Positions 1,136-64,000 of a DNA stretch of 64,000 bases are shown here, one piece after another. A program made the translations under genes and the position numbers. Origin of the DNA: Eledone cirrhosa (Eukaryota); NCBI GenBank assembly GCA_964016885.1, contig OZ024741.1, positions 160,270,001-160,334,000 of the forward strand, in the 5' to 3' direction. The notes under the pieces were generated by a model, which did no database searches, was not told where the DNA came from, and was given only the letters and a program-made list of their open reading frames with translations. Numbering within the stretch: position 1 is the first letter of the stretch; each line of letters begins with the position of its first letter.

Positions 1136-1183
<48 letters not shown>

Positions 1184-1237
1184 CGTTCTGAATTTGTTTA
1201 GCAAGATTCTTTATCTGAAAGCGTGTGTTGAAACCGA

Positions 1238-1606
1238 TATTGTTATGCTTTGGGAGGGTCATGTTGCCAATAAGAAACACACGCACCAGTTATTTCACTT
1301 CAATTTATTATAAATTAAATTTATAAATTTAGGAATTTATAAATTTCCGGTTGGTTGGTTGGTTCCACAATCAGACGATTGTTCATATATTGTCAAAGCT
1401 CTCAAAGAATCCCCAGTCACTGAAGAGGTCACAGAATGTGTGACGAAAGAACTTTGACAATATATGAACAATCGTCTGGTTGTGGAACCAACCAACCCAC
1501 CGGAAATTTATAAATTCCTAAATTTATAAATTTAATTTATAATAAATTGAAGTGAAAGCAACTGGTGCGTGTGTTTCTTATTGGCAACATGACGCTCCCA
1601 AAGCAT

Positions 1607-1612
<6 letters not shown>
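1238..1612. mobile_element. Fold-back (inverted) pair of Penelope 3' terminal segments with hammerhead motif
   Basis: 1404-1610 matches the 3' end of the Penelope copies (29085-29288, 44125-44328). 1238-1403 is its reverse complement. Followed by (TA)n. Confidence 0.85.
1416..1458 (+). ncRNA. Minimal type I hammerhead ribozyme (Penelope terminal)
   Basis: GTCA-CTGAAGA-G-GTCACA gaatg TGTGAC-GAAAG aa CTT-TGAC; stems I and II pair. Confidence 0.75.
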
Positions 1613-5555: not shown

Positions 5556-5750
5556 CATACATACACATATATACATATACATATGTATGGGTTATATCGA
5601 ACAATAATAATGTTCGATTCCTTTGAAGCTGTGCCGTGCCGGTGACCTATCGTCACCTGTTTGTTCAACACATATATGTGTACGTATGCATACTTACATT
5701 TGTGTATCAGCTGTAGGGTGAGAAATAAAATTCTAATTTTATTTGTTATA

Positions 5751-6346
5751 TATATGAATGTATGCATAGTATATTTGGCAATATACCGTATGTTTAATTA
5801 AAAACATTTTGAAGACCATACGCTATCATTTTAAAGTAGTGACTAAGTCACTTCTATTCGGCGAAAGAAGGCAGAGAAGCTAACAGTCTGTTTCATGCTG
5901 TTTAGCAACCATCAGAGCTACGTACTACCCTCTTCCGCCGAAAATTATAGAAGCTGGATTCTTATAGAATTCCAGTAATAATCAGTGGCTGATTAAACAG
6001 AGCGATGTATACATGAATGTATGCATAGTATATTTGGCAATATACTGTATGTTTAATTAAAAACATTTTGAAGACCGGCAATCGCTCTGTATAATCAGCC
6101 TCTAATTATTACTGGAATTCTATAAGAATCCAGCTTCTATAATTTTCGGCGGAAGAGGGCAGTACGTAGCTCTGATGGTTGCTAAACAGCATGAAACAGA
6201 CTGTTAGCTTCTCTGCCTTCTTTCGCCGAGTAGAAGTAAGTGACTTAGTCACTACTTTAAAACTGATAGCGTAAAGTCTTCAAAATGTTTTTAATTAAAC
6301 ATACGGTATATTGCCAAATATACTATGCATACATTCTTGTATACAT
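5751..6346. mobile_element. ~259-bp HHR repeat unit: ~1.25 units minus + 1 unit plus (retrozyme-like fold-back)
   Basis: Direct repeat at 5754/6013, inversion near 6077. HHR-like folds at 5858-5942 (-) and 6146-6229 (+) with long extended stem I. Shares motifs (aaacattttgaagacc, ttatagaat, agcgat) with the 310-bp array. Confidence 0.75.
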
Positions 6347-6377
6347 GGCTATTTCAGGGCACCAATCCTAGTACTTA

Positions 6378-6447
<70 letters not shown>

Positions 6448-27412: not shown

Positions 27413-29282
27413 TATAGTAATAATTATCTAGATACATATGACCTTAGCAATATGAGCCCTACAAGACCAGCAAGAGGTCATTACCATTACCTCAATGGCC
27501 AAGAAAACCCACACAGATAGATGGAACGGGTGGACCAGAGCCATACGGACCCCCGAAAACCACGATGAACTAAAGAAAATGATTGCACATGCGGTGGGGG
27601 GCCAGTATAAAATTAACCCTTAAGAAACATATGTTCAAATTTAATGGAAAAACATATGCCCAAGAGGAGGGAGCAGCCATTGGTGTTAGCATTGCAGGCA
27701 ACATAGCTAACCTATTCATGGTATGGTGGGACAGTAGACTTAAACTTAAACTTAAAGAACAATTAGAAGACAGCAACCTCTTAACTCCCGCTACGTTGAT
27801 GATATAAACATCATAGTAAAAACACCCCCACTAGAGAACAGTCAGTAAATAGAGAAAACACCATGGAAAGCATCCAGCAAATAGCTAACTCCATCCACCA
27901 GAGTATTAGAGTTACTATAGACTACCCAAGCAAACACCCCAAACATCGATTACCTGTACTAGACACAGAGCTCTGGTTAGATACCATTAATAACAAAAAA
28001 CAAATCCTCCATTCCCATTATGCCAAACCCATGACTTCCAAATATCTGATCCACCGAAACTCAGCTGTTTCGGACAACACCAAAATCAACATACTGATTG
28101 CGGATTTGGTACGGGTGATGAGAAACGTGTCCCGCATGTGCAACCCCAAAGAACTAGAGAGACACATACAACACTTCATCCACCGGAGAGATAAAATCAG
28201 AGTATATGGAGGAGCCAGAACCAAATGGGGGAAAAATGGTAAATAATGATACAAATGGGACCTGCCCGTTGTATAGGAGCAAATTTTGGAATAGAATAGA
28301 AAGAACTAGGAATAAGGTTAATAGAATAAACTCATGGTATGATAGCAATAAATACCAGAGTGTAATGTTCAATACAACCCCTAGAGGTGAATTAGCTTAC
28401 AAATTTAGAAGGGCCCTAGATAAATATAAACTCAATATTAAGATAGTAGAAAGACCAGGTACCTCCATAAAATCAGTTATTAGCAATACATACCCTTTTC
28501 AAAGACCTCCCTGTATAGATAAGAAATGTATAATCTGTAAACTAAGCCTCCATATTAACTGTAAAACTAGAAATGTAGTATATAGCATAAGATGTACTGA
28601 AGGAAAATGTAGAGATAAGAATATAGTGTACATAGGTGAGACAGCTCGTAGTATAGGGGAACGGATAAATGAACACTGGCGAGACCTTCAAGATAGTAAA
28701 GAATCATCTGTACTATCTGTACCAACATACTAAAATAGAACAATAGGGTAAATTAGAGAACATAGAAATAAAAATAGAATCTACACACAGAAAAGACGCA
28801 ATGTTTAGACAAATCACAGAGGCAATAAACATAAATGAACTCCAACCAAAATTAAATAGAAAGCATGAATGGAATAGCAACATCACAACTTACAATTAAG
28901 GACAAAATGGAAACACACACACATAGAACAAACAACCAACCAGTAACATGTAAATAAACAAATAAATAAACAAATATAAAACACAGAGACACCCGGATGT
29001 AACACATGCGCAAACTAAGCACACAACAGACACAAAAATAAGGTGGCGTAGGACAGAACAAAGGAGAGGCACAAAAACAAAGAAAAGAATCCCCAGTCAC
29101 TGAAGAGGTCACAGAATGTGTGACGAAAGAACTTTGACAATATACGAACAATCGTCTGGTTGTGGAACCAACCAACCGGAAATTTATAAATTCCTAAATT
29201 TATAAATTTAATTTATAATAAATTGAAGTGAAAGCAACTGGTGGGTGTGTTTCTTATTGGCAACATGACCCTCCCAAAGTAT

Positions 29283-29288
<6 letters not shown>
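27413..29288 (+). mobile_element. Penelope-like element, 5'-truncated, decayed (RT + GIY-YIG), with terminal HHR at 29096-29138
   Basis: YAQEEGAAIGVSIA, LPVLDT, PCIDKKCIIC, NCKTRNVVYSIRC...YIGETARSIGERINEH across frameshifts; ends in (TA)n. Confidence 0.9.
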
Positions 29289-42034: not shown

Positions 42035-44328
42035 AACAATGACGTGCCAGCGTTGTATGGGCTTCGAAAAGCCCATAAAACGAGCAGTGACCCTGTCACA
42101 GGACCACCACCACGGCCAGTCTGTGGAGCTAACATTGCTAGTAACTACAGACTTTCCTACTTCCTCTCCCTGATCATACGCCCCATCATTGAAATGTCCC
42201 CAGATATATGTGACAGCACGGAGGACCTCCTCAGCAGAATCAGCGAGAGTAACCGATCTAGGGACCTAACAAACTGCATAATAGGTAGTATGGATGTTAT
42301 GTCTCTGTATCCATCTATTGACGTGGATTTTGCTGTGGAGAAATGCGTAGAAATGATCAGTGAGAGCAATGTTGAATTCCGTGGGATTGATACCAGTGAG
42401 TTGGGACTCCTACTTAAACCTACCTATAGTAATAATTATCTAGATACATATGGCCTTAGCAACCTGTGCCCTACAAGACCAGCAAGAGGCAGACTACCTC
42501 AATGGCCAATAAAACCCACACAGATAGATGGAACGGGTGGACCAGAACCATACGGACCCTCGAAAACCACGATGAACTAAAGAAAATGATTGCACATGCG
42601 GTGGGGAGCCAGCATAAAATTAACCTTTAAGAAACATATGTTCAAATTTAATGGAAAAACATATGCCCAAGAGGAGGGAGCAGCCATTGGAGTTAGCATT
42701 GCAGGCGACATAGCTAACCTATTCATGGTATGGTGGGACAGTAGACTTAAACTTAAACTTAAAGAACAATTAGAAGAGCCCTTAACTCTGATAATGTACT
42801 TCCGCTACGTTGATGATATAAACATCGTAGTAAAAACACCCCCACTAGAGAACAGTCAGGAATTAGAGAAAAACACAATGGAAAGCATCCAGCAAATAAC
42901 TAACTCCATCCACCAGAGTATTAGAGTTACTATAGACTACCCAAGTAAACACCCCAACCATCGATTACGTGTACTAGACACAGAGCTCTGGTTAGATACC
43001 ATTAATAACAAAAATCAAATCCTCCATTCCCATTATGCCAAACCCATGACTTCCAAATATCTGATCCACCGAAACTCAGCTGTTTCGGACCATACCAAAA
43101 CAAACATACTGATTGCGGATTTGGTACGGGTGATCAGAAACGTGTCCCGTATGTGCAACCCCAAAGAACTAGAGAGACACATACAACACTTCATTCACCG
43201 TTTGCAGTTCTCTGGTTACAATCAGAGAGATAAAATCAGAGTATATAGAGAAGCCAGAACCAAATAGGAAAAAATAGTAAATAATGACACAAATGGGACC
43301 TGCCCCTCGTATAGGAGCAAATTTTGGAATAGAATAGAAAGAACTAGGAATAAGGTTAATAGAATAAACTCATGGTATGATAGCAATAAATACCAGAGTG
43401 TAATGTTCATCGATACAACCCCTAGAGGTGAATTAGCTTACAAATTTAGAAGGGCCCTAGATAAACATAAACTCAATATTAAGATAGTAGAAAGACCAGG
43501 TACCTCCATAAAAACACTTATTAGCAATACATACCCTTTTCAGAAACATCCCTGTATAGATAAGAAATGTATAATCTGTAAATTAAGCCCCTATATTAAC
43601 TGTAAAACTAGAAATGTAGTATATAACATAAGATGTACTGAAGGACAATGTAGAGATAAGAATATAGTGTACATAGGTGAGACAGCTCGTAGTATAGGGG
43701 AACGGATAAATGAACACTGGCGAGACCTTCAAGATAGTAAAGAATCATCTGTACTCTACTAACATGCTAAAATAGAACAATAGGGTAAATTAGAGAACAT
43801 AGAAATAAAAATAGAATCTACACACAGAAAAGACGCAATGTTTAGACAAATCACAGAGGCAATAAACATAAATGAACTCCAACCAAAATTACATAGACAA
43901 CTTGAATGGAACAGCAACATCACAACTTACAATTAAGGACAAAATGAAAACACACACGCACATAGAACAAACAACCAACCAGTAACATGTAAATAAACAA
44001 ATAAATAAACAAATATAAACACACACAGACACACGGATGTAACACATGCGCAAACTAAGCACACAACACACACAAAAACAAGATGGCGTAGGATATAACA
44101 AAGGAGAGACACAAAAACAAAGAAAAGAATCCCCAGTCACTGAAGAGGTCACAGAATGTGTGACGAAAGAACTTTGACAATATATAAACAATCATCTGGT
44201 TGTGGAACCAACCAACCAACCGGAAATTTATAAATTCCTAAATTTATAAATTTATTATAATAAATTGAAGTGAACAACTGGTGCGTGTGTTTCTTATTGA
44301 CAACATGACCCTCCCAAAGTATAACAAT
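42035..44328 (+). mobile_element. Penelope-like element, 5'-truncated, frameshifted (RT + CCHH-type Zn finger + GIY-YIG), terminal HHR at 44136-44178
   Basis: PALYGLRKAHK, PRPVCGA, IIGSMDVMSLYPSI, YAQEEGAAIG, YFRYVDDI, LRVLDT, VVYNIRC...YIGETARSIGERINEH; both ends in (TA)n. Confidence 0.92.
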
Positions 44329-44345
44329 ATATATATATATATATA

Positions 44346-47300
44346 TGAATATAGACATAGAATATTCGAAAATATTCTGTATGTTTATAATAAACATTTT
44401 GAAGACCTAATCGCTATAGAATAGAATACGTCACGTATTACAATTAGATTCTCGATAAAAGCAAGGGAAGTAATCTACGCGTTTCATTCTCGTTAGAAAT
44501 CATCGGGACTACATATCCAGTGCTTTTATCGAGAATGACACAGCTAGAGACTTATAGAATACTTAGCTGTGTACAGGAACTGGTTTGAAAGAGCGGTTGC
44601 CGGTCCGGCAGAAATTAGAAATTGGAATAAATGCTCTGAAATAGCGATATATATGTGAATATAGACATAGAATATTCGAAAATATTCTGTATGTTTATAA
44701 TAAACATTTTGAAGACCTAATCGCTATAGAATAGAATACGTCACGTATTACAATTAGATTCTCGATAAAAGCAAGGGAAGTAATCTACGCGTTTCATTCT
44801 CGTTAGAAATCATCAGGACTACATATCCAGTGCTTTTATCGAGAATGACACAGCTAGAGACTTATAGAATACTTAGCTGTGTACAGGAACTGGTTTGAAA
44901 GAGCGGTTGCCGGTCCGGCAGAAATTAGAAATTGGAATAAATGCTCTGAAATAGCGATATATATGTGAATATAGACATAGAATATTCGAAAATATTCTGT
45001 ATGTTTATAATAAACATTTTGAAGACCTAATCGCTATAGAATAGAATACGTCACGTATTACAATTAGATTCTCGATAAAAGCAAGGGAAGTAATCTACGC
45101 GTTTCATTCTCGTTAGAAATCATCAGGACTACATATCCAGTGCTTTTATCGAGAATGACACAGCTAGAGACTTATAGAATACTTAGCTGTGTACAGGAAC
45201 TGGTTTGAAAGAGCGGTTGCCGGTCCGGCAGAAATTAGAAATTGGAATAAATGCTCTGAAATAGCGATATATATGTGAATATAGACATAGAATATTCGAA
45301 AATATTCTGTATGTTTATAATAAACATTTTGAAGACCTAATCGCTATAGAATAGAATACGTCACGTATTACAATTAGATTCTCGATAAAAGCAAGGGAAG
45401 TAATCTACGCGTTTCATTCTCGTTAGAAATCATCAGGACTACATATCCAGTGCTTTTATCGAGAATACGTATTCTATTCTATAGCGATTAGGTCTTCAAA
45501 ATGTTTATTATAAACATACAGAATATTTTCGAATATTCTATGTCTATATTCACATATATATCGCTATTTCAGAGCATTTATTCCAATTTCTAATTTCTGC
45601 CGGACCGGCAACCGCTCTTTCAAACCAGTTCCTGTACACAGCTAAGTATTCTATAAGTCTCTAGCTGTGTCATTCTCGATAAAAGCACTGGATATGTAGT
45701 CCTGATGATTTCTAACGAGAATGAAACGCGTAGATTACTTCCCTTGCTTTTATCGAGAATCTAATTGTAATACGTGACGTATTCTATTCTATAGCGATTA
45801 GGTCTTCAAAATGTTTATTATAAACATACAGAATATTTTCGAATATTCTATGTCTATATTCACATATATATCGCTATTTCAGAGCATTTATTCCAATTTC
45901 TAATTTCTGCCGGACCGGCAACCGCTCTTTCAAACCAGTTCCTGTACACAGCTAAGTATTCTATAAGTCTCTAGCTGTGTCATTCTCGATAAAAGCACTG
46001 GATATGTAGTCCTGATGATTTCTAACGAGAATGAAACGCGTAGATTACTTCCCTTGCTTTTATCGAGAATCTAATTGTAATACGTGACGTATTCTATTCT
46101 ATAGCGATTAGGTCTTCAAAATGTTTATTATAAACATACAGAATATTTTCGAATATTCTATGTCTATATTCACATATATATCGCTATTTCAGAGCATTTA
46201 TTCCAATTTCTAATTTTTCTGCCGGACCGGCAACCGCTCTTTCAAACCAGTTCCTGTACACAGCTAAGTATTCTATAAGTCTCTAGCTGTGTCATTCTCG
46301 ATAAAAGCACTGGATATGTAGTCCTGATGATTTCTAACGAGAATGAAACGCGTAGATTACTTCCCTTGCTTTTATCGAGAATCTAATTGTAATACGTGAC
46401 GTATTCTATTCTATAGCGATTAGGTCTTCAAAATGTTTATTATAAACATACAGAATATTTTCGAATATTCTATGTCTATATTCACATATATATCGCTATT
46501 TCAGAGCATTTATTCCAATTTCTAATTTCTGCCGGACCGGCAACCGCTCTTTCAAACCAGTTCCTGTACACAGCTAAGTATTCTATAAGTCTCTAGCTGT
46601 GTCATTCTCGATAAAAGCACTGGATATGTAGTCCTGATGATTTCTAACGAGAATGAAACGCGTAGATTACTTCCCTTGCTTTTATCGAGAATCTAATTGT
46701 AATACGTGACGTATTCTATTCTATAGCGATTAGGTCTTCAAAATGTTTATTATAAACATACAGAATATTTTCGAATATTCTATGTCTATATTCACATATA
46801 TATCGCTATTTCAGAGCATTTATTCCAATTTCTAATTTCTGCCGGACCGGCAACCGCTCTTTCAAACCAGTTCCTGTACACAGCTAAGTATTCTATAAGT
46901 CTCTAGCTGTGTCATTCTCGATAAAAGCACTGGATATGTAGTCCTGATGATTTCTAACGAGAATGAAACGCGTAGATTACTTCCCTTGCTTTTATCGAGA
47001 ATCTAATTGTAATACGTGACGTATTCTATTCTATAGCGATTAGGTCTTCAAAATGTTTATTATAAACATACAGAATATTTTCGAATATTCTATGTCTATA
47101 TTCACATATATATCGCTATTTCAGAGCATTTATTCCAATTTCTAATTTCTGCCGGACCGGCAACCGCTCTTTCAAACCAGTTCCTGTACACAGCTAAGTA
47201 TTCTATAAGTCTCTAGCTGTGTCATTCTCGATAAAAGCACTGGATATGTAGTCCTGATGATTTCTAACGAGAATGAAACGCGTAGATTACTTCCCTTGCT

Positions 47301-47753
47301 TTTATCGAGAATCTAATTGTAATACGTGACGTATTCTATTCTATAGCGATTAGGTCTTCAAAATGTTTATTATAAACATACAGAATATTTTCGAATATTC
47401 TATGTCTATATTCACATATATATCGCTATTTCAGAGCATTTATTCCAATTTCTAATTTCTGCCGGACCGGCAACCGCTCTTTCAAACCAGTTCCTGTACA
47501 CAGCTAAGTATTCTATAAGTCTCTAGCTGTGTCATTCTCGATAAAAGCACTGGATATGTAGTCCTGATGATTTCTAACGAGAATGAAACGCGTAGATTAC
47601 TTCCCTTGCTTTTATCGAGAATCTAATTGTAATACGTGACGTATTCTATTCTATAGCGATTAGGTCTTCAAAATGTTTATTATAAACATACAGAATATTT
47701 TCGAATATTCTATGTCTATATTCACATATATATCGCTATTTCAGAGCATTTAT

Positions 47754-47759
<6 letters not shown>
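44346..47759. repeat. Bipolar tandem array of 310-bp hammerhead-ribozyme units (non-LTR retrozyme-like)
   Basis: Period 310 (44347/44657/44967/45277; CTGATGA at 45702, 46012, 46324, 46634, 46944, 47254, 47564). ~3.6 units minus, ~7.4 units plus, switch at 45466. Flanked by (TA)n. Confidence 0.92.
45672..45760 (+). ncRNA. Type I hammerhead ribozyme with extended stem I (representative of 11 copies)
   Basis: ATTCTCGATAAAAGCA ctggatat GTAGTC-CTGATGA-tTTCT aacg AGAAt-GAAAC gc GTA-GATTAC ttccct TGCTTTTATCGAGAAT; predicted cleavage after GUA (45732). Confidence 0.85.
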
Positions 47760-47837
<78 letters not shown>

Positions 47838-56892: not shown

Positions 56893-59417
56893 TTCTTTAT
56901 TTACCATAAAGGCATAAAAAGAAGGGACAAATACAAAGGGGGAGTTTACATATAATCGAGTAAAAAGGGTGTAACATGAAAATAATCGAAAATAACCTCA
57001 AAAGGGAGGGGACGTGATGGGGGTTGCACACACCCCCGAAAAAGTGTGCAATCCTTTGCCCGGGGAGCACATGGAGAAGGTGCTCCCCTCTCCTTTACTT
57101 CTTTACCTACAGGATGGTATACAGAGAAGGCCCATTTACACGAGCCATTCTCGCCACTATCACCCACCTTTCATAAAACTGCCTGTGGCCAAGCACCTCT
57201 CTCTCCATTCTTATCCTTCTTCCGAAGTGATATCGGAAGAAGTAGACCAGACTATGGCCAGAGAGGAAGTTGCCTGACCTCAGACCTTTCAATCGTGTCC
57301 ACCAAACAACCTCTTTCAACATGGCTATTACGCACAGAAAAACCGCCTTTGCTTCCTTTGTGAAGAGGGGAGGCGGTTTGATTGTCATCACGGACTCGGC
57401 GGTCAATTTAATCGGCGCCACCCGCGACAGCAGTTGTTCGGCGTAGCCCCACAGATCAGCCACGCCCGGAGATTGCACCAATGCGTGCGCTACGGTTTCT
57501 TCGTGACGCACGCATCTAGGGCAAATCTTTTTTGAGGGATCCCTGCCCGGGCGCCCGTGTCTGTAGAGCCTCTCTCGAACGGGTAGAGCCCCTCGGTAGC
57601 ACTGCCAGGCCAGTGACTTCTGGAAGTTGTCCATTGGTCCTGGGCCGAAAGTCCTACCGAACAGGCTGGCCAGTTCGTCTTCTTCCATGTCCAGCGACTC
57701 TCCAAGGGTATCATCGCCCCTGCTAGCCACCAGCCCTCTATAGAATGATGAGGTGGATTCTCCACCGATGGCCTGGCCCGCTTGCCAGAGAGCCCTGAGC
57801 GCCTGAGCACACTCAGTGTGCCAGTCTCCCAGTTTTCCGGATCTTTGCTTGACCCAGGACTGTAGCTCGGTGAGTAAGACGAGTCTCGGAAAGGCTCGTT
57901 TCACGAACGGAGCCCACACCGGTTGACCAGTGAGGAATACCTGTAGGTGCCGTAGCCTTAATGCGTGCCTACGCATCATCAACCACGGCATCCCCAGCCC
58001 TCCTTTCGAAGGTTGTTGGCAGCAGATGGATCTTCTCACCATAGGAGGACGCTTCTTCCAAAGAAATTGGAAGAGCATGCGTTCCATGGTGGTGAGTGTT
58101 TCCTTAGGGCAAGGCACGACAGTCAGGCGGTAGTAAGTGACGGACGCTATGTAAATGTTCGCCACCTCCGCCCGGCCTTTTAGGGACAGCTTACACTTGG
58201 CCCATTTCTGGGTTAGTGCAAACACCTTGTTCGTAACCTCGTTCAAGTTCTTTTCCACCTGGAGGTCCGGTCCAAACCAGACCCCAAGCAACTTTACCGG
58301 GCCCTCCGTCCAGTGTCCGACGACACCGTCAGGAGGCATCGGTTTGCCTCTCCACGTTCCGAGTTGCAGCCCGATGGATTTTTCCCGGTTCAGTTTCGCT
58401 CCTGACAACCTTTCGTACTCCTCCAGTAAGGTACCGATCGCCTCGATCTCCGAGTCGGTTGATACCATTACTGTTACGTCATCGGCGTAGGCCGACACCG
58501 CTTTGCTCAATTCTGGTTCCAGGGGGATACCCTGCAACAACTCCAACTTCCTCAGTAAAGGCTCGAGAGTCAATACGTACAGAAGGGAGGAGAGAGGGCA
58601 CCCCTGTCGAATGGATCGTGTGATTTCGAACGGCTTCGAAAGGTAGCCGTTCACCTTGATCCTAGAACAGATGTGGTTGCTATGTATGGCAGTGATCCAG
58701 CCTCTGAAAACAGGACCGAACCCAGCCGCCGCTAGCACCGCATCCAGGTAACCATGGTCGACCCTATCGAAGGCCTTAGACTGATCCAAGTTGATCAGGG
58801 CCCCACCGAAGCCGGGTTTGTTGCCAACCCTCTCTATGATGTATCGCATGAGGTGGAGGTTATCGTGAATGGACCTGGATGGGATAGCACATGTCTGCGC
58901 ATCTCCCACCAGGCCACCCACGACAAGCGCCAACCTCTTTGCTAACACCTTGGCCAAAATCTTTAACTCTGTGTTTAGCAGGGTTATGGGCCGAAAATTA
59001 TTTATACTATCCCCCTTGTTCTCGTCCTTCCTCACCAGCGTGACTACGCCCTTGGCTACAGAACAAGGAATTCTCCCGTTCTGCTGCCAATTGCAGTAGA
59101 CCGCTTCGAGGAGTTCGGAGAAGAAGACCGGCATTGCTAAATAAAGTTCGTAAGGTATACCATCGAGACCTGGAGATTTGCGTCTGCTGCATTGGCTCAG
59201 CGCATCTCCGATCTCATCAGCCGAGATTGGTCCCTCGCAGGACTCTGCCTCTTCGCTCGAGAGACGCGGCAGGCCGTCGAGGTATGGACCGAAATCCACG
59301 CCCCGGCCCGGACCCTCGCCTCCCCCGAACAATCGGGCAAAGTGCTTTTGAAAGGCCTCGCACATCTGCTTAGGCTCCCGGATCACTCGTCCATCTTCGT
59401 CTTGCAACGACCGGAAT
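56892..59417 (-). mobile_element. 5'-truncated Tx1/L1-type LINE with open RT-containing frame (59417-57107)
   Basis: KSPGLDG, NFRPITLLN, LDQSKAFD, RQGCPLS, AYADD, CPRC..H; flanked by (GATA)n on both sides. Confidence 0.92.
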
Positions 59418-59477
<60 letters not shown>

Positions 59478-59481
59478 CTAA

Positions 59482-59551
<70 letters not shown>

Positions 59552-59784
59552 TTCTTTATTAGCCACAAGGGCGCAACAAGAAAGGGGACAATACAAAGAC
59601 ATGCCGGGGATTTTACATACAGTCGTGTAAAAAATATAAAAACAAACAATTTCAACAATCGAAATCCCCAATAGGGGGGAGGAGCCACAAATGGGTTGTT
59701 TAATACCCCGTCGATAGAACAACCCTCAACTCAAGGAGCGTGTTGTGCAAGTGCTCCTTTCTTCCTTTTGCTCTCTTCCTCAAC

Positions 59785-62700
59785 CTACAGGCTTATAAAC
59801 AGAGAAGGCCCAATCACTCGGGCCATTTTCGCTTCATTCACCCACCTTTCAGTAAATTTACTGGGGTGCAGTGCCTCTCTCTCCACCCTGATTCTCCTTC
59901 TAAAGTGATACTTAAAGAATGGAATCAATTGTTGTCCGGAGAGAAAGGCATCTGTCCTCAGTCCTCTCAACCTCGTCCACCATATAACTTCTTTCACCAT
60001 AGCCACCGTACAGAGGAAAACCGCCTCTCTTTCGTTTTTTAAAGAGTCTGGCGGTTTGATCCTTACTATGGACTCGGCATTCAACTGTATTTGTCCCATA
60101 CGCGACAGCAGTTGTTCTGCATAGTTCCACAGGTCGCTTACGCCCGGGCAGTGTACAATTGCGTGCAGAACTGTTTCAATGTCCTGCGCACATCTTGGAC
60201 ACGTCCTCTTGGAAGGCTCCCTGCCAGGGCGTCCGTGCCTGTAGATCTTGTCACGAACCGGTAGAGCTCCTCGGTAGCACTGCCAGGCCAGGGACCTCTG
60301 GAAGTTGTCCATAGGTCCCGGGCGGAAAGTCCTACCAAACATACTGGTGAGCTCATCGTCTTCGACGCCCAGAGTCTCTCCGAGCACGTCGTCGCCCTTG
60401 TAACGTACAATCCCTCTATAGAATGTCGAAGTGGAGTCTCCACTGATTGCTGCGCCCGCTTGCCAGAGGACTGTGAGCGCCTGAGCGCATTCAATGTGCC
60501 AGGCGTCCATCGTTTTCGGTCTTTTCTTCACCCAGGACTGCAGCTCCGTTAGCGAGACGAGCTGTGGGAAAGCCTGTCTCACAAACGGTGCCCACACCGG
60601 TTGGGGGTCGGTGAGGAATACCTGGAGATGCCGCAGCCTCAGCGCATGTTTGCGCATCATCAGCCACGGCATTCCCAGCCCTCCGTTGGAAGGGTGCTGA
60701 CAGCAGACGGATCTCCTCACCAGCGGAGCCTGCTTCTTCCACAGAAACTGGAAGAGCATGCGTTCCATCTTGGCGAGGTGTTCACGGGGACAAGGCACGA
60801 CAGTCAAGCGGTAGTAGATGACGGACGCTATGAAAGTGTTCGCCACCTCCGCTCGACCTTTCAAGGACAGTTTGCACTCTGCCCACTTCTGAGTGAGTGC
60901 AAACACCTTGGCCGTGACCTCGTTCCAGTTTTTCTCCACCTGGAGGTCTGGACCGAACCAGACCCCGAGCAATTTCACCGGTCCGTCCGTCCAGCGTCCA
61001 ACGACGCTGTCGGATGTCATCGGTTTGCCTCTCCACGTACCGAGTTGCAAACCGACAGACTTGTCTGGGTTTAGTTTTGCTCCCGTCAGCGTTTCGTATT
61101 CTTTCAGTATGTTGCCGATCACCCCGATTTCCGAGGTGCTCGACACCATTACTGTCACGTCGTCGGCATAAGCCGACGCCGCTTTGCGCAGTCCCGGTTC
61201 TAGGGGGATGCCCTGCAACAGCTCCAATTTCCGCAGTAGTGACTCTAGAGTCAATACATACAGAATGGAGGAGAGAGGGCATCCCTGTCGAATGGAACGC
61301 GTGATTGCGAACGGCTCCGATAGGTAGCCGTTCACCTTGTCCCTCGAGCAGATGCTGGTGTGCATCGCCTCGATCCATCCTCTGAACACGGGACCGAAAC
61401 CGGCCGCCTTGAGAACCGCTTCCAAGTATCGATGGTCGACCCTATCGAATGCCTTAGACTGATCCAAGTTGATCAGAGCCCCACCGAAGCCGGGTTTACT
61501 ACCCACCCTCTCTATGATGTATCGCATGAGGTGGAGGTTGTCGTGTATGGACCTGGTCGGGATTGCACACGTTTGCGCTTTCCCTACCAGGTTCTCGACG
61601 ACAAGCGCCAACCTCGTCGCTAGCACCTTGGCCAAAATCTTTAACTCTGTGTTGAGCAGAGTTATGGGCCTGAAGTTGTTAATTTCGTCCCCCTTGTTCT
61701 CGTCTTTCCTGATCAGCGTTACTACGCCCTTGCCTGCAGAACTGGGAATTCTCCCGTTCTGCTGCCAATTGCAGTAGACGGCTTCGAGGACGCCAGAGAA
61801 CAAGTCCGGCATGCCTATGTAAAATTCGTAGGGTAGACCATCTAGACCGGATGACTTGCGTTTCCCGCAGCGGCCCAGAGCGTCCCGTATCTCAGTGTCC
61901 GTGATCGGTCTTTCGCAGAACTCGGCGTCCGTGTTCGAGAGACGCGGCAGGCCGTCGAGGTATGAACTAAAGTCCATTGCCCCGTTCGGCTCACCGTCGT
62001 TCTGCTCAAACAGTCGCGCAAAGTGCCGCTGAAAGGCCGCGCACATTTGCTTGGGGTCAAGTAGCACGCTTCCGTTTTGGTCTTTCAAAGACCGAATCGT
62101 GGACTTGTTGCCACTTTTTGCCTCCGCCACTCGGGCCCAGCTGACAGCTTTCGCTCCTTCGTTTCCTAGAGCACGTGTTTTGCTTCTGACCACGCAGCCT
62201 TCGTGTTTCGCATCGAAGAACTGGTCCAGTGCCGTTCTCGACGCTAACACTCTAGCCGCGTTGCCACTTCTAAGTGCCTCCTCTACCTTGGCTACTAGTT
62301 CTCTTTCTATTCTGTTTTTCTCTAAGGCTAACTCTCTGCTATACCCTATCGATTCTATTCTAATTGCTTTCTTGAGAGAGTACCACCATCTATTGTTGAC
62401 GATGGCTCCCGTTAACTGTTGCTTGACTAGTTTACTTATCCGTTCACTGTAAGCTTTACGTGCCGGCAACGACACGTTCAGCTTCCAGTATCCGGGACCC
62501 TGTCTATGTATTCTATCACGGTTGACTAAGCAGACGACTAACTTGTGATCTGAATAGGCAACCATGTGCATTCGTGGACAGCTTAACATATCCTTGTCCC
62601 TTTCTCTAATGAAGAACCTATCTAAATACGATCTAGATGTCCCACTGCGGTTTACCCACGTCCACTGTGGTGCAGTCGGGAAATCCAGTCGATACCTATC

Positions 62701-63231
62701 GGCCAGTTGGAATTGGCCGATTAAAGTTTTGAGGCTGTTGCACCCCGCTCTACTGGGACATGCTCCCACATAGTCCCATCGTGCATCTAGGATACCATTC
62801 CAGTCCCCCACTAAAAGTAAGGAGCGAGACGTTCCCAGAAAAGACTCTAGACGCTTAAAGAAGTCTGGCCGTGATTGCGATTGCCCGGTCGGGGCATAAA
62901 CGGCCACCAGTCTGAAGGCTCCACCTCCGATACTGTTCACGTCTAGGACTACCAGTCTACCCTCCGGGTCCAAGTGTACTTGCTGTACTCCGACGTCCAG
63001 GTTCTTCCGAAACATAATAGCCACTCCACCTCCACCTCCTGGCTGACAGAGAGATGCGTAGATCTCAAAGTCGTCGAAGATGGGGGTTAGTTGCTGCCTG
63101 TTGTGGATTCTGGACTCGGTGATGGCTATCACATCCATACTGTGTGACCTAAGGTCGTTTAAAAGTTGGCCCTGTTTCCAGGGCATCCCTAGGCCACGCA
63201 CATTCACGGTTCCAACTCGTAAACCAGCCAT
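59785..63231 (-). CDS. LINE ORF2: APE endonuclease + reverse transcriptase + C-terminal zinc knuckle (1148 aa)
   Basis: TVNVRGL, ITES, VYAP, GDWN, YLDRF, SDHK; PGYWKLN; LDQSKAFD, QGCPLS, YADD; CPRC-X8-H-X4-C. Confidence 0.95.
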   Translation of the reverse strand: MAGLRVGTVNVRGLGMPWKQGQLLNDLRSHSMDVIAITESRIHNRQQLTPIFDDFEIYASLCQPGGGGGVAIMFRKNLDVGVQQVHLDPEGRLVVLDVNSIGGGAFRLVAVYAPTGQSQSRPDFFKRLESFLGTSRSLLLVGDWNGILDARWDYVGACPSRAGCNSLKTLIGQFQLADRYRLDFPTAPQWTWVNRSGTSRSYLDRFFIRERDKDMLSCPRMHMVAYSDHKLVVCLVNRDRIHRQGPGYWKLNVSLPARKAYSERISKLVKQQLTGAIVNNRWWYSLKKAIRIESIGYSRELALEKNRIERELVAKVEEALRSGNAARVLASRTALDQFFDAKHEGCVVRSKTRALGNEGAKAVSWARVAEAKSGNKSTIRSLKDQNGSVLLDPKQMCAAFQRHFARLFEQNDGEPNGAMDFSSYLDGLPRLSNTDAEFCERPITDTEIRDALGRCGKRKSSGLDGLPYEFYIGMPDLFSGVLEAVYCNWQQNGRIPSSAGKGVVTLIRKDENKGDEINNFRPITLLNTELKILAKVLATRLALVVENLVGKAQTCAIPTRSIHDNLHLMRYIIERVGSKPGFGGALINLDQSKAFDRVDHRYLEAVLKAAGFGPVFRGWIEAMHTSICSRDKVNGYLSEPFAITRSIRQGCPLSSILYVLTLESLLRKLELLQGIPLEPGLRKAASAYADDVTVMVSSTSEIGVIGNILKEYETLTGAKLNPDKSVGLQLGTWRGKPMTSDSVVGRWTDGPVKLLGVWFGPDLQVEKNWNEVTAKVFALTQKWAECKLSLKGRAEVANTFIASVIYYRLTVVPCPREHLAKMERMLFQFLWKKQAPLVRRSVCCQHPSNGGLGMPWLMMRKHALRLRHLQVFLTDPQPVWAPFVRQAFPQLVSLTELQSWVKKRPKTMDAWHIECAQALTVLWQAGAAISGDSTSTFYRGIVRYKGDDVLGETLGVEDDELTSMFGRTFRPGPMDNFQRSLAWQCYRGALPVRDKIYRHGRPGREPSKRTCPRCAQDIETVLHAIVHCPGVSDLWNYAEQLLSRMGQIQLNAESIVRIKPPDSLKNEREAVFLCTVAMVKEVIWWTRLRGLRTDAFLSGQQLIPFFKYHFRRRIRVEREALHPSKFTERWVNEAKMARVIGPSLFISL

Positions 63232-63272
63232 GTTGGTGAAGAAAAGTTGGAGAAAAAGGACGAAAGGTGCAC

Positions 63273-64000
63273 TTACCTTTTCGTTTCCTGGAGATCGGGT
63301 TGTTCAATCTCCATTTGGGTGCTGGATGGGGTGTTGGGTGGGGTGGGGAAACATTTCAACAGGACGCGGTTGATGGGTTTGTGGCAGGGGTTGCCCACGT
63401 CCTGTGAACATTTAATTTTCAGGTCTTTATAGGTTTCTATAGAAACCCTTATAAGTTTAAGGTGTGGAGACGATTCTGCCTTGACGAAAGTTTTGCCCTC
63501 CGTCTCCACCTTGGGGTTTTGGGAGATGACCTCCATCAAACTCTTGTTGTTTGTGTTGATGTATGCGTATTGTTGTTTGTGTTTTTGTTGTATTGTTTTA
63601 GTTTGTTGTTCATCTGGGAGTTTTCTTTTTATGGTGGGTGCTTGTGTTTGGGGTGGTGTTGGTGCTGGTTTTGCTGATAGGGGGGTGTTTGACTGTGGTG
63701 TTGTTTGTGTTGTTGTTTGTGTCTGTGGTTGTGTGTTGGTGTTGGTGATTGGAGTTTTGGGGGTTTTGTGGTGTCTCTTTTTTTGTTTTTTGGATTTCCG
63801 CGGTTCTCCCTCTTCTTCACTTAAAGAAGGAGAAGCAGCTTCATCCGTCGATGAATAATCATCGTCAGGTGTGTGGGGTAAGGGTATGTTGTGTGGTGGT
63901 GGAGGTGTTTCGGTATGTGTGTTTGTAGTAGTGTTTGATGGAGTGGGATGGAGTGGGGATGTATTCTTCAGGGGTGTTGTCTCTGTTTTTTCTGTTGTTG
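63273..64000 (-). CDS. LINE ORF1 C-terminal part (low-complexity T/P/Q/K-rich), truncated by window edge
   Basis: Manually read open frame ...SLSEEEGEPRKSKKQKKRHH...NKSLMEVISQ...LQETKR* ending 41 nt before the ORF2 ATG. Confidence 0.65.
   Translation of the reverse strand, partial: TTEKTETTPLKNTSPLHPTPSNTTTNTHTETPPPPHNIPLPHTPDDDYSSTDEAASPSLSEEEGEPRKSKKQKKRHHKTPKTPITNTNTQPQTQTTTQTTPQSNTPLSAKPAPTPPQTQAPTIKRKLPDEQQTKTIQQKHKQQYAYINTNNKSLMEVISQNPKVETEGKTFVKAESSPHLKLIRVSIETYKDLKIKCSQDVGNPCHKPINRVLLKCFPTPPNTPSSTQMEIEQPDLQETKR

What the first reader, a model, noticed from the sequence alone, without database searches (positions are those of the whole stretch)
44346..47759. Bipolar 310-bp tandem array with a hammerhead ribozyme in every unit (retrozyme-like concatemer)
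Seen: 11 nearly identical non-coding units, each with GTAGTC-CTGATGA-stem II-GAAACGCGTA-GATTAC, closed by a 16-bp perfect distal stem and an internal loop. Four ribozymes face left and seven face right. The array is bounded by (TA)n and starts ~20 bp after a Penelope 3' end. Known: Penelope-like elements carry minimal type I HHRs, and metazoan non-LTR retrozymes are small tandem HHR repeats that yield monomer/circular RNAs. Inference: this is a rolling-circle reverse transcript of a ~310-nt circular RNA, inserted by a Penelope RT/GIY-YIG enzyme. The ACGCGT palindrome in stem III suggests cleavage as a dimer of adjacent units. I am not aware of such a family described in this lineage but cannot search.
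Basis: partly seen in the sequence, partly recalled or inferred. Interest (0 to 1): 0.92.

Follow-up and report, generated by a model that had tools for sequence, protein, structure and literature searches.

The report
Hammerhead retrozyme arrays with Penelope footprints
This is one of roughly 1,600-2,000 young copies of a small parasitic RNA element carrying a self-cutting ribozyme; the element is a known kind, but the very regular two-armed shape of its insertions shows how Penelope-type jumping-gene enzymes probably paste such RNAs into DNA, by copying one small RNA template from two start points at once.

Summary
The array is real: 3.6 + 7.4 units of 310 bp, head to head, with 11 type I hammerhead motifs (one with a core mutation). 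It is a non-LTR retrozyme, a known kind already proposed to be mobilised by Penelope-like elements (PLEs). New is the insertion evidence from 100 loci. All 82 two-armed arrays scored are head to head, with one 3' end at a 'short' site and one about 35 nt further on (the PLE 'tail'), both in (TA)n. The arms share one haplotype in 44 of 45 arrays (7.3 when shuffled). 5' ends do not pile up at the cleavage site. Array-wide variants spare the ribozyme fold (13 of 14, against 10 of 31 private ones). Two autonomous PLE families here show the same end rule. Best reading: both target strands prime reverse transcription at two internal sites of a monomer template, probably a circle. No RNA, cleavage or partner enzyme was shown. 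The neighbouring Penelope is there through a shared target. The scan noted retrozymes, and one ribozyme-free PLE-type array, on other DNA before.

The parts
44346..45466 (-). Left arm, 3.62 units, ribozyme sense reading leftwards; 4 hammerheads (predicted cuts after 45406, 45096, 44786, 44476); 3' end at the 'short' site (unit position 130, counting 45733 as 1)
45467..47759 (+). Right arm, 7.40 units; 7 hammerheads (predicted cuts after 45732, 46042, 46354, 46664, 46974, 47284, 47594); 3' end at the 'long' site (unit position 165)
45733..46042 (+). One cleavage-to-cleavage monomer, 310 nt, the inferred RNA template
   Evidence: closed 340-nt contigs of this unit in runs X1 and X2
45672..45760 (+). 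First right-arm hammerhead: distal stem 45672-45687/45745-45760, proximal stem I 45696-45701/45733-45738, core from 45702, stem II with U.U base, palindromic stem III 45726-45731, GUA cut after 45732
45791..45877 (+). Long hairpin that holds the short priming site (TA-like tract, unit positions 130-139) on its 3' side; the best conserved part between this family and the older sister family
47725..47759 (+). PLE-type 'tail': the 35 nt by which the right end extends beyond the left end
   Evidence: PMC8557442 passages, PMC11167929
45451..45482 (.). Head-to-head junction at 45466/45467 (unit positions 250 and 45), at the foot of the 16-bp stem; each of 82 arrays has a different junction
44328..44345 (.). 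Left (TA)n target tract
47760..47829 (.). Right (TA)n target tract
42047..44327 (+). Neighbouring 5'-truncated, broken Penelope-like element (RT and GIY-YIG pieces, C-x4-C-x2-C linker) with its own hammerhead at 44136-44178; same (TA)n target, not shown to be the mobiliser

Best explanation
A young non-LTR retrozyme family mobilised in trans by a Penelope-like RT/GIY-YIG protein. Steps: (1) an arm is transcribed outwards as a multimer (inferred); (2) two adjacent hammerheads fold together through the ACGCGU palindrome and release a 310-nt monomer (fold computed, cleavage inferred); (3) the monomer is closed to a circle in which the lone ribozyme cannot form a stable stem III (inferred from related retrozymes); (4) the PLE protein cuts both strands of a (TA)n tract, and each 3' end primes cDNA at an internal site of the RNA, one at unit position about 130-139 and the other at about 163-174 (end positions shown; enzyme inferred); (5) each cDNA runs round the monomer a variable number of times and stops at random (homogeneous arms and random 5' ends shown); (6) the two cDNA 3' ends are joined by microhomology or short insertions, giving a head-to-head array with a tail on one side (junctions shown). 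If only one cDNA is kept, a single arm results, mostly with the short end.
For: 82 of 82 two-armed arrays among 100 loci are head to head with one short and one long end; 27 of these come from loci picked by internal variants, not by their ends. 179 of 180 scorable 3' ends have (TA)4 within 40 bp. Same rule in two autonomous PLE families: 8 of 9 and 4 of 4, with tails of about 60 and 65-75 nt. In vitro a PLE protein cuts and extends both strands and starts at two internal sites that bound the tail (PMC11167929). Monomer bottleneck: 37 array-wide haplotypes in 87 arrays; arms identical in 44 of 45 against a mean of 7.3 (max 16) in 2,000 shuffles; rare variants 158A>G (36 units genome-wide), 119T>G (29) and 92A>G (47) lie on both arms of every two-armed array that has them in more than one unit (3 of 3, 2 of 2, 4 of 4). 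No stop at the cut site: 3 of 182 5' ends within 5 nt, 6.5 expected. Fold under selection: array-wide substitutions in the ribozyme domain keep it in 13 of 14 cases, private ones in 10 of 31, Fisher p = 2e-4 (10 of 10 against 2 of 16 in the first set). The unconstrained minimum-energy fold of two ribozymes is the double hammerhead, -109.3 against -90.0 kcal/mol for two local ones. Microhomology of 2 nt or more at 33 of 55 junctions without insertion, 18% expected at random.
Against: No RNA, circle or cleavage was observed here. In the anole PLE, ribozyme cleavage was not needed for insertion in vitro and no RNA-seq reads ended at the cut (PMC11167929); only 1 of 9 Xenopus retrozyme dimers cleaved in vitro (bioRxiv 10.64898/2026.07.22.740005). 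Two molecules from one homogeneous source array would also give matching arms. L072 has a mosaic arm, and L066 has a one-unit variant in register on both arms, which fits a multimer template. A 46-unit arm shows internal block duplications, so the longest arms need not be single RT runs. None of 43 array-wide variants hits the 15 core positions, but only about 2 would be expected, so the core alone is not significant; one array-wide change breaks a stem II pair and two stem I insertions were not scored. The mobilising PLE was not identified. One PLE locus, L131, has two long ends.
Confidence: 0.62

Rival explanations
1. Same PLE double priming, but on an uncleaved linear multimer; the ribozyme is a structural passenger.
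For: Cleavage dispensable for the anole PLE in vitro; no 5' pile-up at the cut is also expected here; one in-register shared variant in L066.
Against: Copying different source units cannot fix a new variant in all units of both arms, yet 37 array-wide haplotypes occur in 87 arrays; only 1 of 100 private events is shared in register over about 170 overlapping units; no junction is shared among 82 arrays; the fold is preserved by propagated variants.
Confidence: 0.12
2. Monomer template, but linear: the RT jumps repeatedly from the 5' end to the 3' end of a cleaved monomer held together by stem I, or two monomers from one transcript are held as a ribozyme dimer and serve one arm each.
For: Explains homogeneity and matching arms without ligation; the dimer fold is favoured; mosaic arm in L072.
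Against: No indel at positions 309-2 in 591 units and no 5' pile-up at the cut, whereas end-to-end jumps are usually imprecise (recalled); no array with a multi-unit variant fixed on one arm only among 45.
Confidence: 0.15
3. One priming event followed by fold-back or self-priming (the self-priming idea of PMC3846280 for head-to-head PLEs).
For: Gives matching arms by construction; some junctions lie at the 16-bp stem (window, L034, L068); 9 of 55 junctions are near-palindromic.
Against: Offsets between the arms' 5' ends look uniform (5 of 82 within 31 nt, 8.5 expected; 7.3 near-palindromic expected by chance); either arm can be the longer (23 against 17); in L081 the 11-nt long-end arm lies outside the other arm; a fold-back copy has no reason to stop always at the other site.
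Confidence: 0.07
4. A DNA satellite grown by unequal exchange, or an assembly or fold-back read artefact.
For: Local block duplications exist in one 46-unit arm; L057 is duplicated across a gap.
Against: About 1,600-2,000 dispersed arrays, 82 different junctions, unequal arms, fixed asymmetric ends; run X3 shows loose (AT)n ends at 45871 and 45902, the same two sites (this run may be the source sample).
Confidence: 0.04

Closest known systems
Metazoan non-LTR retrozymes (Cervera and de la Pena 2020, PMC7229834; Li, Clavereau and Pollet 2026, bioRxiv 10.64898/2026.07.22.740005)
   Same: Non-coding tandem units of 150-450 bp, G+C under 45%, a type I hammerhead in each unit; palindromic stem III as in axolotl HHR_Amex1 and U.U at the base of stem II as in HHR_Amex2; circles as RT templates and PLEs as mobilisers are proposed there.
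   Different: Neither text, as far as read, describes head-to-head arrays, tails or fixed 3' ends ('inverted' occurs 0 times in PMC7229834). Li et al. favour local tandem growth by unequal crossover; here arrays look born as multimers. Expression and circles are shown there, not here. No sequence match of the unit body to a PLE pLTR was found.
EN+ Penelope-like elements (Neptune/Poseidon/Naiad architecture; PMC8557442, PMC3846280, PMC11167929)
   Same: Inverted 5'-truncated copy head to head, 30-40-bp tail on one end, (TA)n target, hammerhead upstream of the 3' end, two internal RT start sites.
   Different: No ORF; many rounds of a 310-nt unit. The papers call the tail optional or often on one end and attribute it to EN resolution, or the inversion to self-priming; the strict one-short-one-long pairing with matching arm haplotypes is not stated in the passages read.
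Non-autonomous Chlamys elements such as MRC1 (PMC8557442)
   Same: Non-coding, PLE-mobilised, multicopy head-to-tail insertions.
   Different: Green algae; 3' ends resemble the autonomous partner; canonical hammerheads mostly absent from Chlamys.
L1 twin priming (recalled, no call)
   Same: Both target ends prime cDNA and the two cDNAs are joined by microhomology, giving a head-to-head inversion.
   Different: There the second primer anneals at a variable internal site of a linear poly(A) RNA; here both sites are fixed, about 35 nt apart, and both arms are multimers.

Membership tests
Type I hammerhead ribozyme, canonical metazoan form | CUGAnGA / GAAA / NUH core with helix I 6 bp, helix II 4 bp, helix III 1-2 bp with palindromic loop | tested here: met
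   definition from PMC4209133 passage
Type I hammerhead ribozyme, canonical metazoan form | Match to an Rfam hammerhead model | tested here: not met
   no match at gathering level or at E<=10
Type I hammerhead ribozyme, canonical metazoan form | Self-cleavage | not testable with these tools
   only indirect: fold preserved by propagated variants and core kept in the sister family
Non-LTR retrozyme | Non-coding tandem units of 150-450 bp, low G+C, type I hammerhead in at least two consecutive units | tested here: met
Non-LTR retrozyme | Dispersed multicopy family without LTRs | tested here: met
Non-LTR retrozyme | Expressed as monomeric linear and circular RNA | tested here: inconclusive
   no run on record as RNA; closed contigs in runs of unknown kind arise from tandem DNA too
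PLE-mobilised insertion | Inverted 5'-truncated copy, head to head | tested here: met
   82 of 100 loci by script, none tail to tail in the first 66
PLE-mobilised insertion | 30-40-bp tail on one end | tested here: met
   82 of 82
PLE-mobilised insertion | (TA)n target preference | tested here: met
   179 of 180 ends
PLE-mobilised insertion | Sequence kinship with the pLTR of an autonomous partner | tested here: inconclusive
   no partner among 30 of 44 module hits; a second PLE family shares only about 26 nt of ribozyme core and stem II
PLE-mobilised insertion | Target-site duplication | tested here: inconclusive
   not resolvable inside (TA)n
Plant LTR retrozyme | Type III hammerhead in two LTRs | tested here: not met
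   type I topology, tandem units

The most novel reading that the evidence does not exclude
The PLE enzyme works as an asymmetric dimer on a single covalently closed 310-nt RNA circle: its two halves cut opposite strands of (TA)n, prime at the two ends of the tail, and both roll round the same circle. That one mechanism would explain pLTRs, tandems, head-to-head inversions and the one-sided tail of Penelope-like elements, and give their hammerheads a job.
Probability: 0.4. Interest if true: 0.85.

Novelty: new member of a known kind. Interest (0 to 1): 0.63.

Why it matters
How PLEs form their tandem and inverted structures, and what their ribozymes are for, is called unresolved in PMC8557442 and PMC11167929; how animal retrozymes are mobilised is called unresolved in the 2026 preprint. 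A very young family of near-identical arrays turns each insertion into a record of one reaction. It gives structural evidence that a retrozyme uses PLE machinery, a strict rule (one start site per target strand), evidence for a monomer template, and evidence that the ribozyme fold matters for spread. It also supplies a 310-nt substrate with mapped start sites for the existing in vitro PLE assay.

Tried and rejected
DNA search of the own genome with the monomer returned nothing because common words are skipped; patterns were used instead. Rfam: no hammerhead hit. No RNA holder listed: no evidence either way. Closed 340-nt contigs identical to the window unit in X1 and X2 are not taken as circles, since the runs' kind is unknown and tandem DNA gives the same. 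Partner search: 30 of 44 hits of a relaxed hairpin pattern were retrozyme-type copies or fragments, with no PLE ORF running into the module; ribozyme and tblastn scans of fetched loci found other PLE families with unlike ends; the priming-hairpin profile found nothing in 5 loci of the second PLE family. Adjacency to the neighbouring Penelope rejected as evidence. Arm-identity test on the neighbouring PLE family was inconclusive, several arms being too short or mis-paired. A-to-I editing of the template: array-wide A>G against T>C 9:4, private 17:20, p = 0.2, sample biased by my own A>G searches and confounded by G.U tolerance: not claimed. No parent unit of a rare haplotype was identified; the single-unit hits mostly lie on other backgrounds. 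Fold-back rejected. Rows dropped before counts: the cut second array of L050 (same as L051) and the first L057 copy (duplicate across a gap); L183, two-armed with one long and one short end, was binned as single-armed by the script, and L081 with its 11-nt arm also counts as single there. The lineage was not confirmed by a database.

Full report
Observation. The array is as described. A left arm 44346-45466 (3.62 units, ribozyme sense on -) and a right arm 45467-47759 (7.40 units, +) point away from each other between two (TA)n tracts. There are eleven hammerhead motifs, ten with an intact core. The unit has no ORF of 100 aa or more. The ribozyme has a 6-bp proximal stem I, an internal loop, a 16-bp distal stem, a 4-bp stem II over a U.U pair and the palindrome ACGCGU in place of stem III, which matches the canonical metazoan type I form (PMC4209133, passages). 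Rfam does not detect it. With two ribozymes in one transcript the unconstrained best fold is the double hammerhead with a 6-bp inter-unit stem III: -109.3 kcal/mol against -90.0 for two local folds, pair probabilities 0.89-0.98, z = -5.9.

Host and copy number. The genome has 3.0 Gb. Its mitochondrial ND2-COI-COII region looks octopod to me; that is recalled likeness, not a database result. The 43-nt hammerhead of the window's type has 4,033 exact matches. End-specific patterns give 793 and 945 plus-strand sites (minus-strand counts are inflated by overlapping matches), from which I estimate 1,600-2,000 arrays. Two-armed arrays average 10.1 units. Private changes are rare, 100 events in 591 units, so the family is young. 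Six public runs under four organism labels hold the unit; none is on record as RNA.

Architecture of the family. I parsed 100 loci. Set 1 is 66 from the window and the first 110 Mb of C1, picked by the ribozyme pattern (10) or by an end pattern. Set 2 is 34 on C1-C4, C6-C8, C28 and C284, picked by internal variants or lying beside such hits. 82 were scored two-armed, all head to head, and all 82 have one 3' end at the short site (mostly unit positions 128-139, the unit's own TA-like tract) and one at the long site (mostly 163-174). Independent choice of sites would give half. Of 18 scored single-armed, 13 end at the short site and 5 at the long; two of the 18 (L081, L183) have a second arm on inspection and obey the rule. 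179 of 180 scorable 3' ends abut (TA)n. All 82 junctions differ; 33 of 55 without insertion have 2 nt or more of microhomology (18% expected), and 27 carry insertions, several copied from nearby unit sequence. 5' ends are spread over the unit (chi-square p = 0.11 in set 1), with 3 of 182 near the cut site against 6.5 expected. Run X3 shows loose (AT)n ends at the same two sites.

These are PLE hallmarks. An inverted 5'-truncated copy, a 30-40-bp tail on one end and (TA)n targets are described for PLEs (PMC8557442, passages; PMC3846280, passages). A purified anole PLE protein cuts and extends both strands, starts reverse transcription at two internal sites that bound the tail, and is predicted to be a dimer (PMC11167929, parts 1-2 of 4 read). 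Two autonomous families in this genome follow the same short-plus-long rule: the neighbour's family in 8 of 9 two-armed loci (L131 has two long ends; L121 and L132 were unclear and not counted) and a second family, which has a 758-aa open frame with a weak GIY-YIG hit, in 4 of 4.

What the template was. Each array is nearly homogeneous, but arrays differ: 37 array-wide haplotypes in 87 arrays, 27 seen once (partly enriched by my variant searches; 26 in 60 before them). The two arms agree in 44 of 45 arrays against 7.3 when arms are shuffled. Rare variants counted genome-wide lie on both arms of every two-armed array that has them in several units. Copying a heterogeneous multimer cannot do this; a one-unit bottleneck followed by amplification during insertion can. 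Exact junctions at the cut site and no 5' pile-up there favour a closed circle over end-to-end jumping. Fold-back is disfavoured by uniform arm offsets, by either arm being the longer (23 against 17) and by L081. Variants that passed through this bottleneck keep the ribozyme fold: 13 of 14 substitutions in the domain against 10 of 31 private ones (p = 2e-4); most are G.U-tolerant stem changes or fall on the free core position and loop II. An older homologous family keeps the core and the priming hairpin with a different stem sequence.

Against and open. No RNA, cleavage or circle was seen. Cleavage was dispensable for the anole PLE, and 8 of 9 Xenopus dimers did not cleave. Two monomers from one homogeneous locus would also give matching arms; one mosaic arm (L072) and one in-register shared variant (L066) exist. 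A 46-unit arm grew by later duplication. The partner is unknown. The neighbour is broken, its family is older (93% DNA identity between the two long window copies) and its adjacency is at background level. The second PLE family (18,023 exact ribozyme matches) shares the core and stem II only.

Known versus new. The kind is in print: non-LTR retrozymes with circles as proposed RT templates and PLEs as candidate mobilisers (PMC7229834, passages), and a preprint arguing PLE origin from co-occurrence and pLTR similarity (bioRxiv 10.64898/2026.07.22.740005, parts 1-3 of 5 read; supplements not seen). A circle template for PLE tandems was proposed in 2014. In eight library searches and the texts read I found no description of head-to-head, tailed retrozyme arrays, of the one-site-per-strand rule, of matching arm haplotypes, or of a cephalopod retrozyme. 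Subscription papers and supplementary figures (for example Fig. S9 of PMC7229834, Figs S1-S2 of PMC11167929) were not seen and may bear on this. An earlier unchecked scan note (e1-7881736) reports PLE-type ends on a ribozyme-free tandem element in another genome.

Verdict. A new member of a known kind, real and ordinary as an element, but unusually informative about an open mechanism. Interest 0.63; the single-circle, two-RT model has probability about 0.4 and would merit 0.85.

Noticed in passing
window 5747-6385: An older, homologous retrozyme family, also head to head with one short and one long end in (TA)n; further copies in L033 and among L139-L168.
   Followed up: partly
L036:1-1130, L039:1000-1385, L095:2000-3050, L205; L057:1-960: Two more hammerhead repeat families of about 400-480 bp with palindromic ACTAGT stem III; the first also forms head-to-head arrays, and the 310-bp family has inserted into its internal TA tract in L036.
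   Followed up: partly
window 1182-1611, 27413-29287, 42047-44327: Three copies of one abundant Penelope-like family (27,523 first-look candidates); the first is a short head-to-head copy with a tail of about 60 nt. Longest open frame seen 866 aa (L132).
   Followed up: partly
L208:4265-6578 (-), L206, L207, L209, L210: A second PLE family with pLTR-ORF-pLTR layout, a 758-aa open frame and a ribozyme whose core and stem II nearly match the retrozyme's; 18,023 exact ribozyme matches; possible ribozyme donor or mobiliser.
   Followed up: partly
L188-L189 (G000:C1:217.795-217.810 Mb): 46-unit arm, heterogeneous, with repeated blocks of units: expansion after insertion.
   Followed up: partly
L072, L074; unit position 276: 276A>G in stem I recurs on several haplotype backgrounds and switches within an arm; RNA editing of the template or template switching are possible, not shown.
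   Followed up: partly
L052:1399-1670: 272 bp of unrelated G+C-rich sequence captured at the junction between the arms.
   Followed up: no
runs X1 and X2: Each holds a single closed contig identical to the window's unit with no variants, although that haplotype is a minority in this assembly; kind of run unknown.
   Followed up: no
window 57107-59725 and 59785-63303 (-): Two adjacent LINE-type open frames (872 aa RT; 1172 aa endonuclease plus RT), apparently tandem young copies.
   Followed up: no
window 2280, 5327, 18424 (-): Further solitary hammerhead-like motifs of other families.
   Followed up: no
G000:C2:345.137 Mb, 115.16-115.18 Mb, 163.79 Mb, 206.20 Mb: Nuclear copies of mitochondrial COI.
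   Followed up: no
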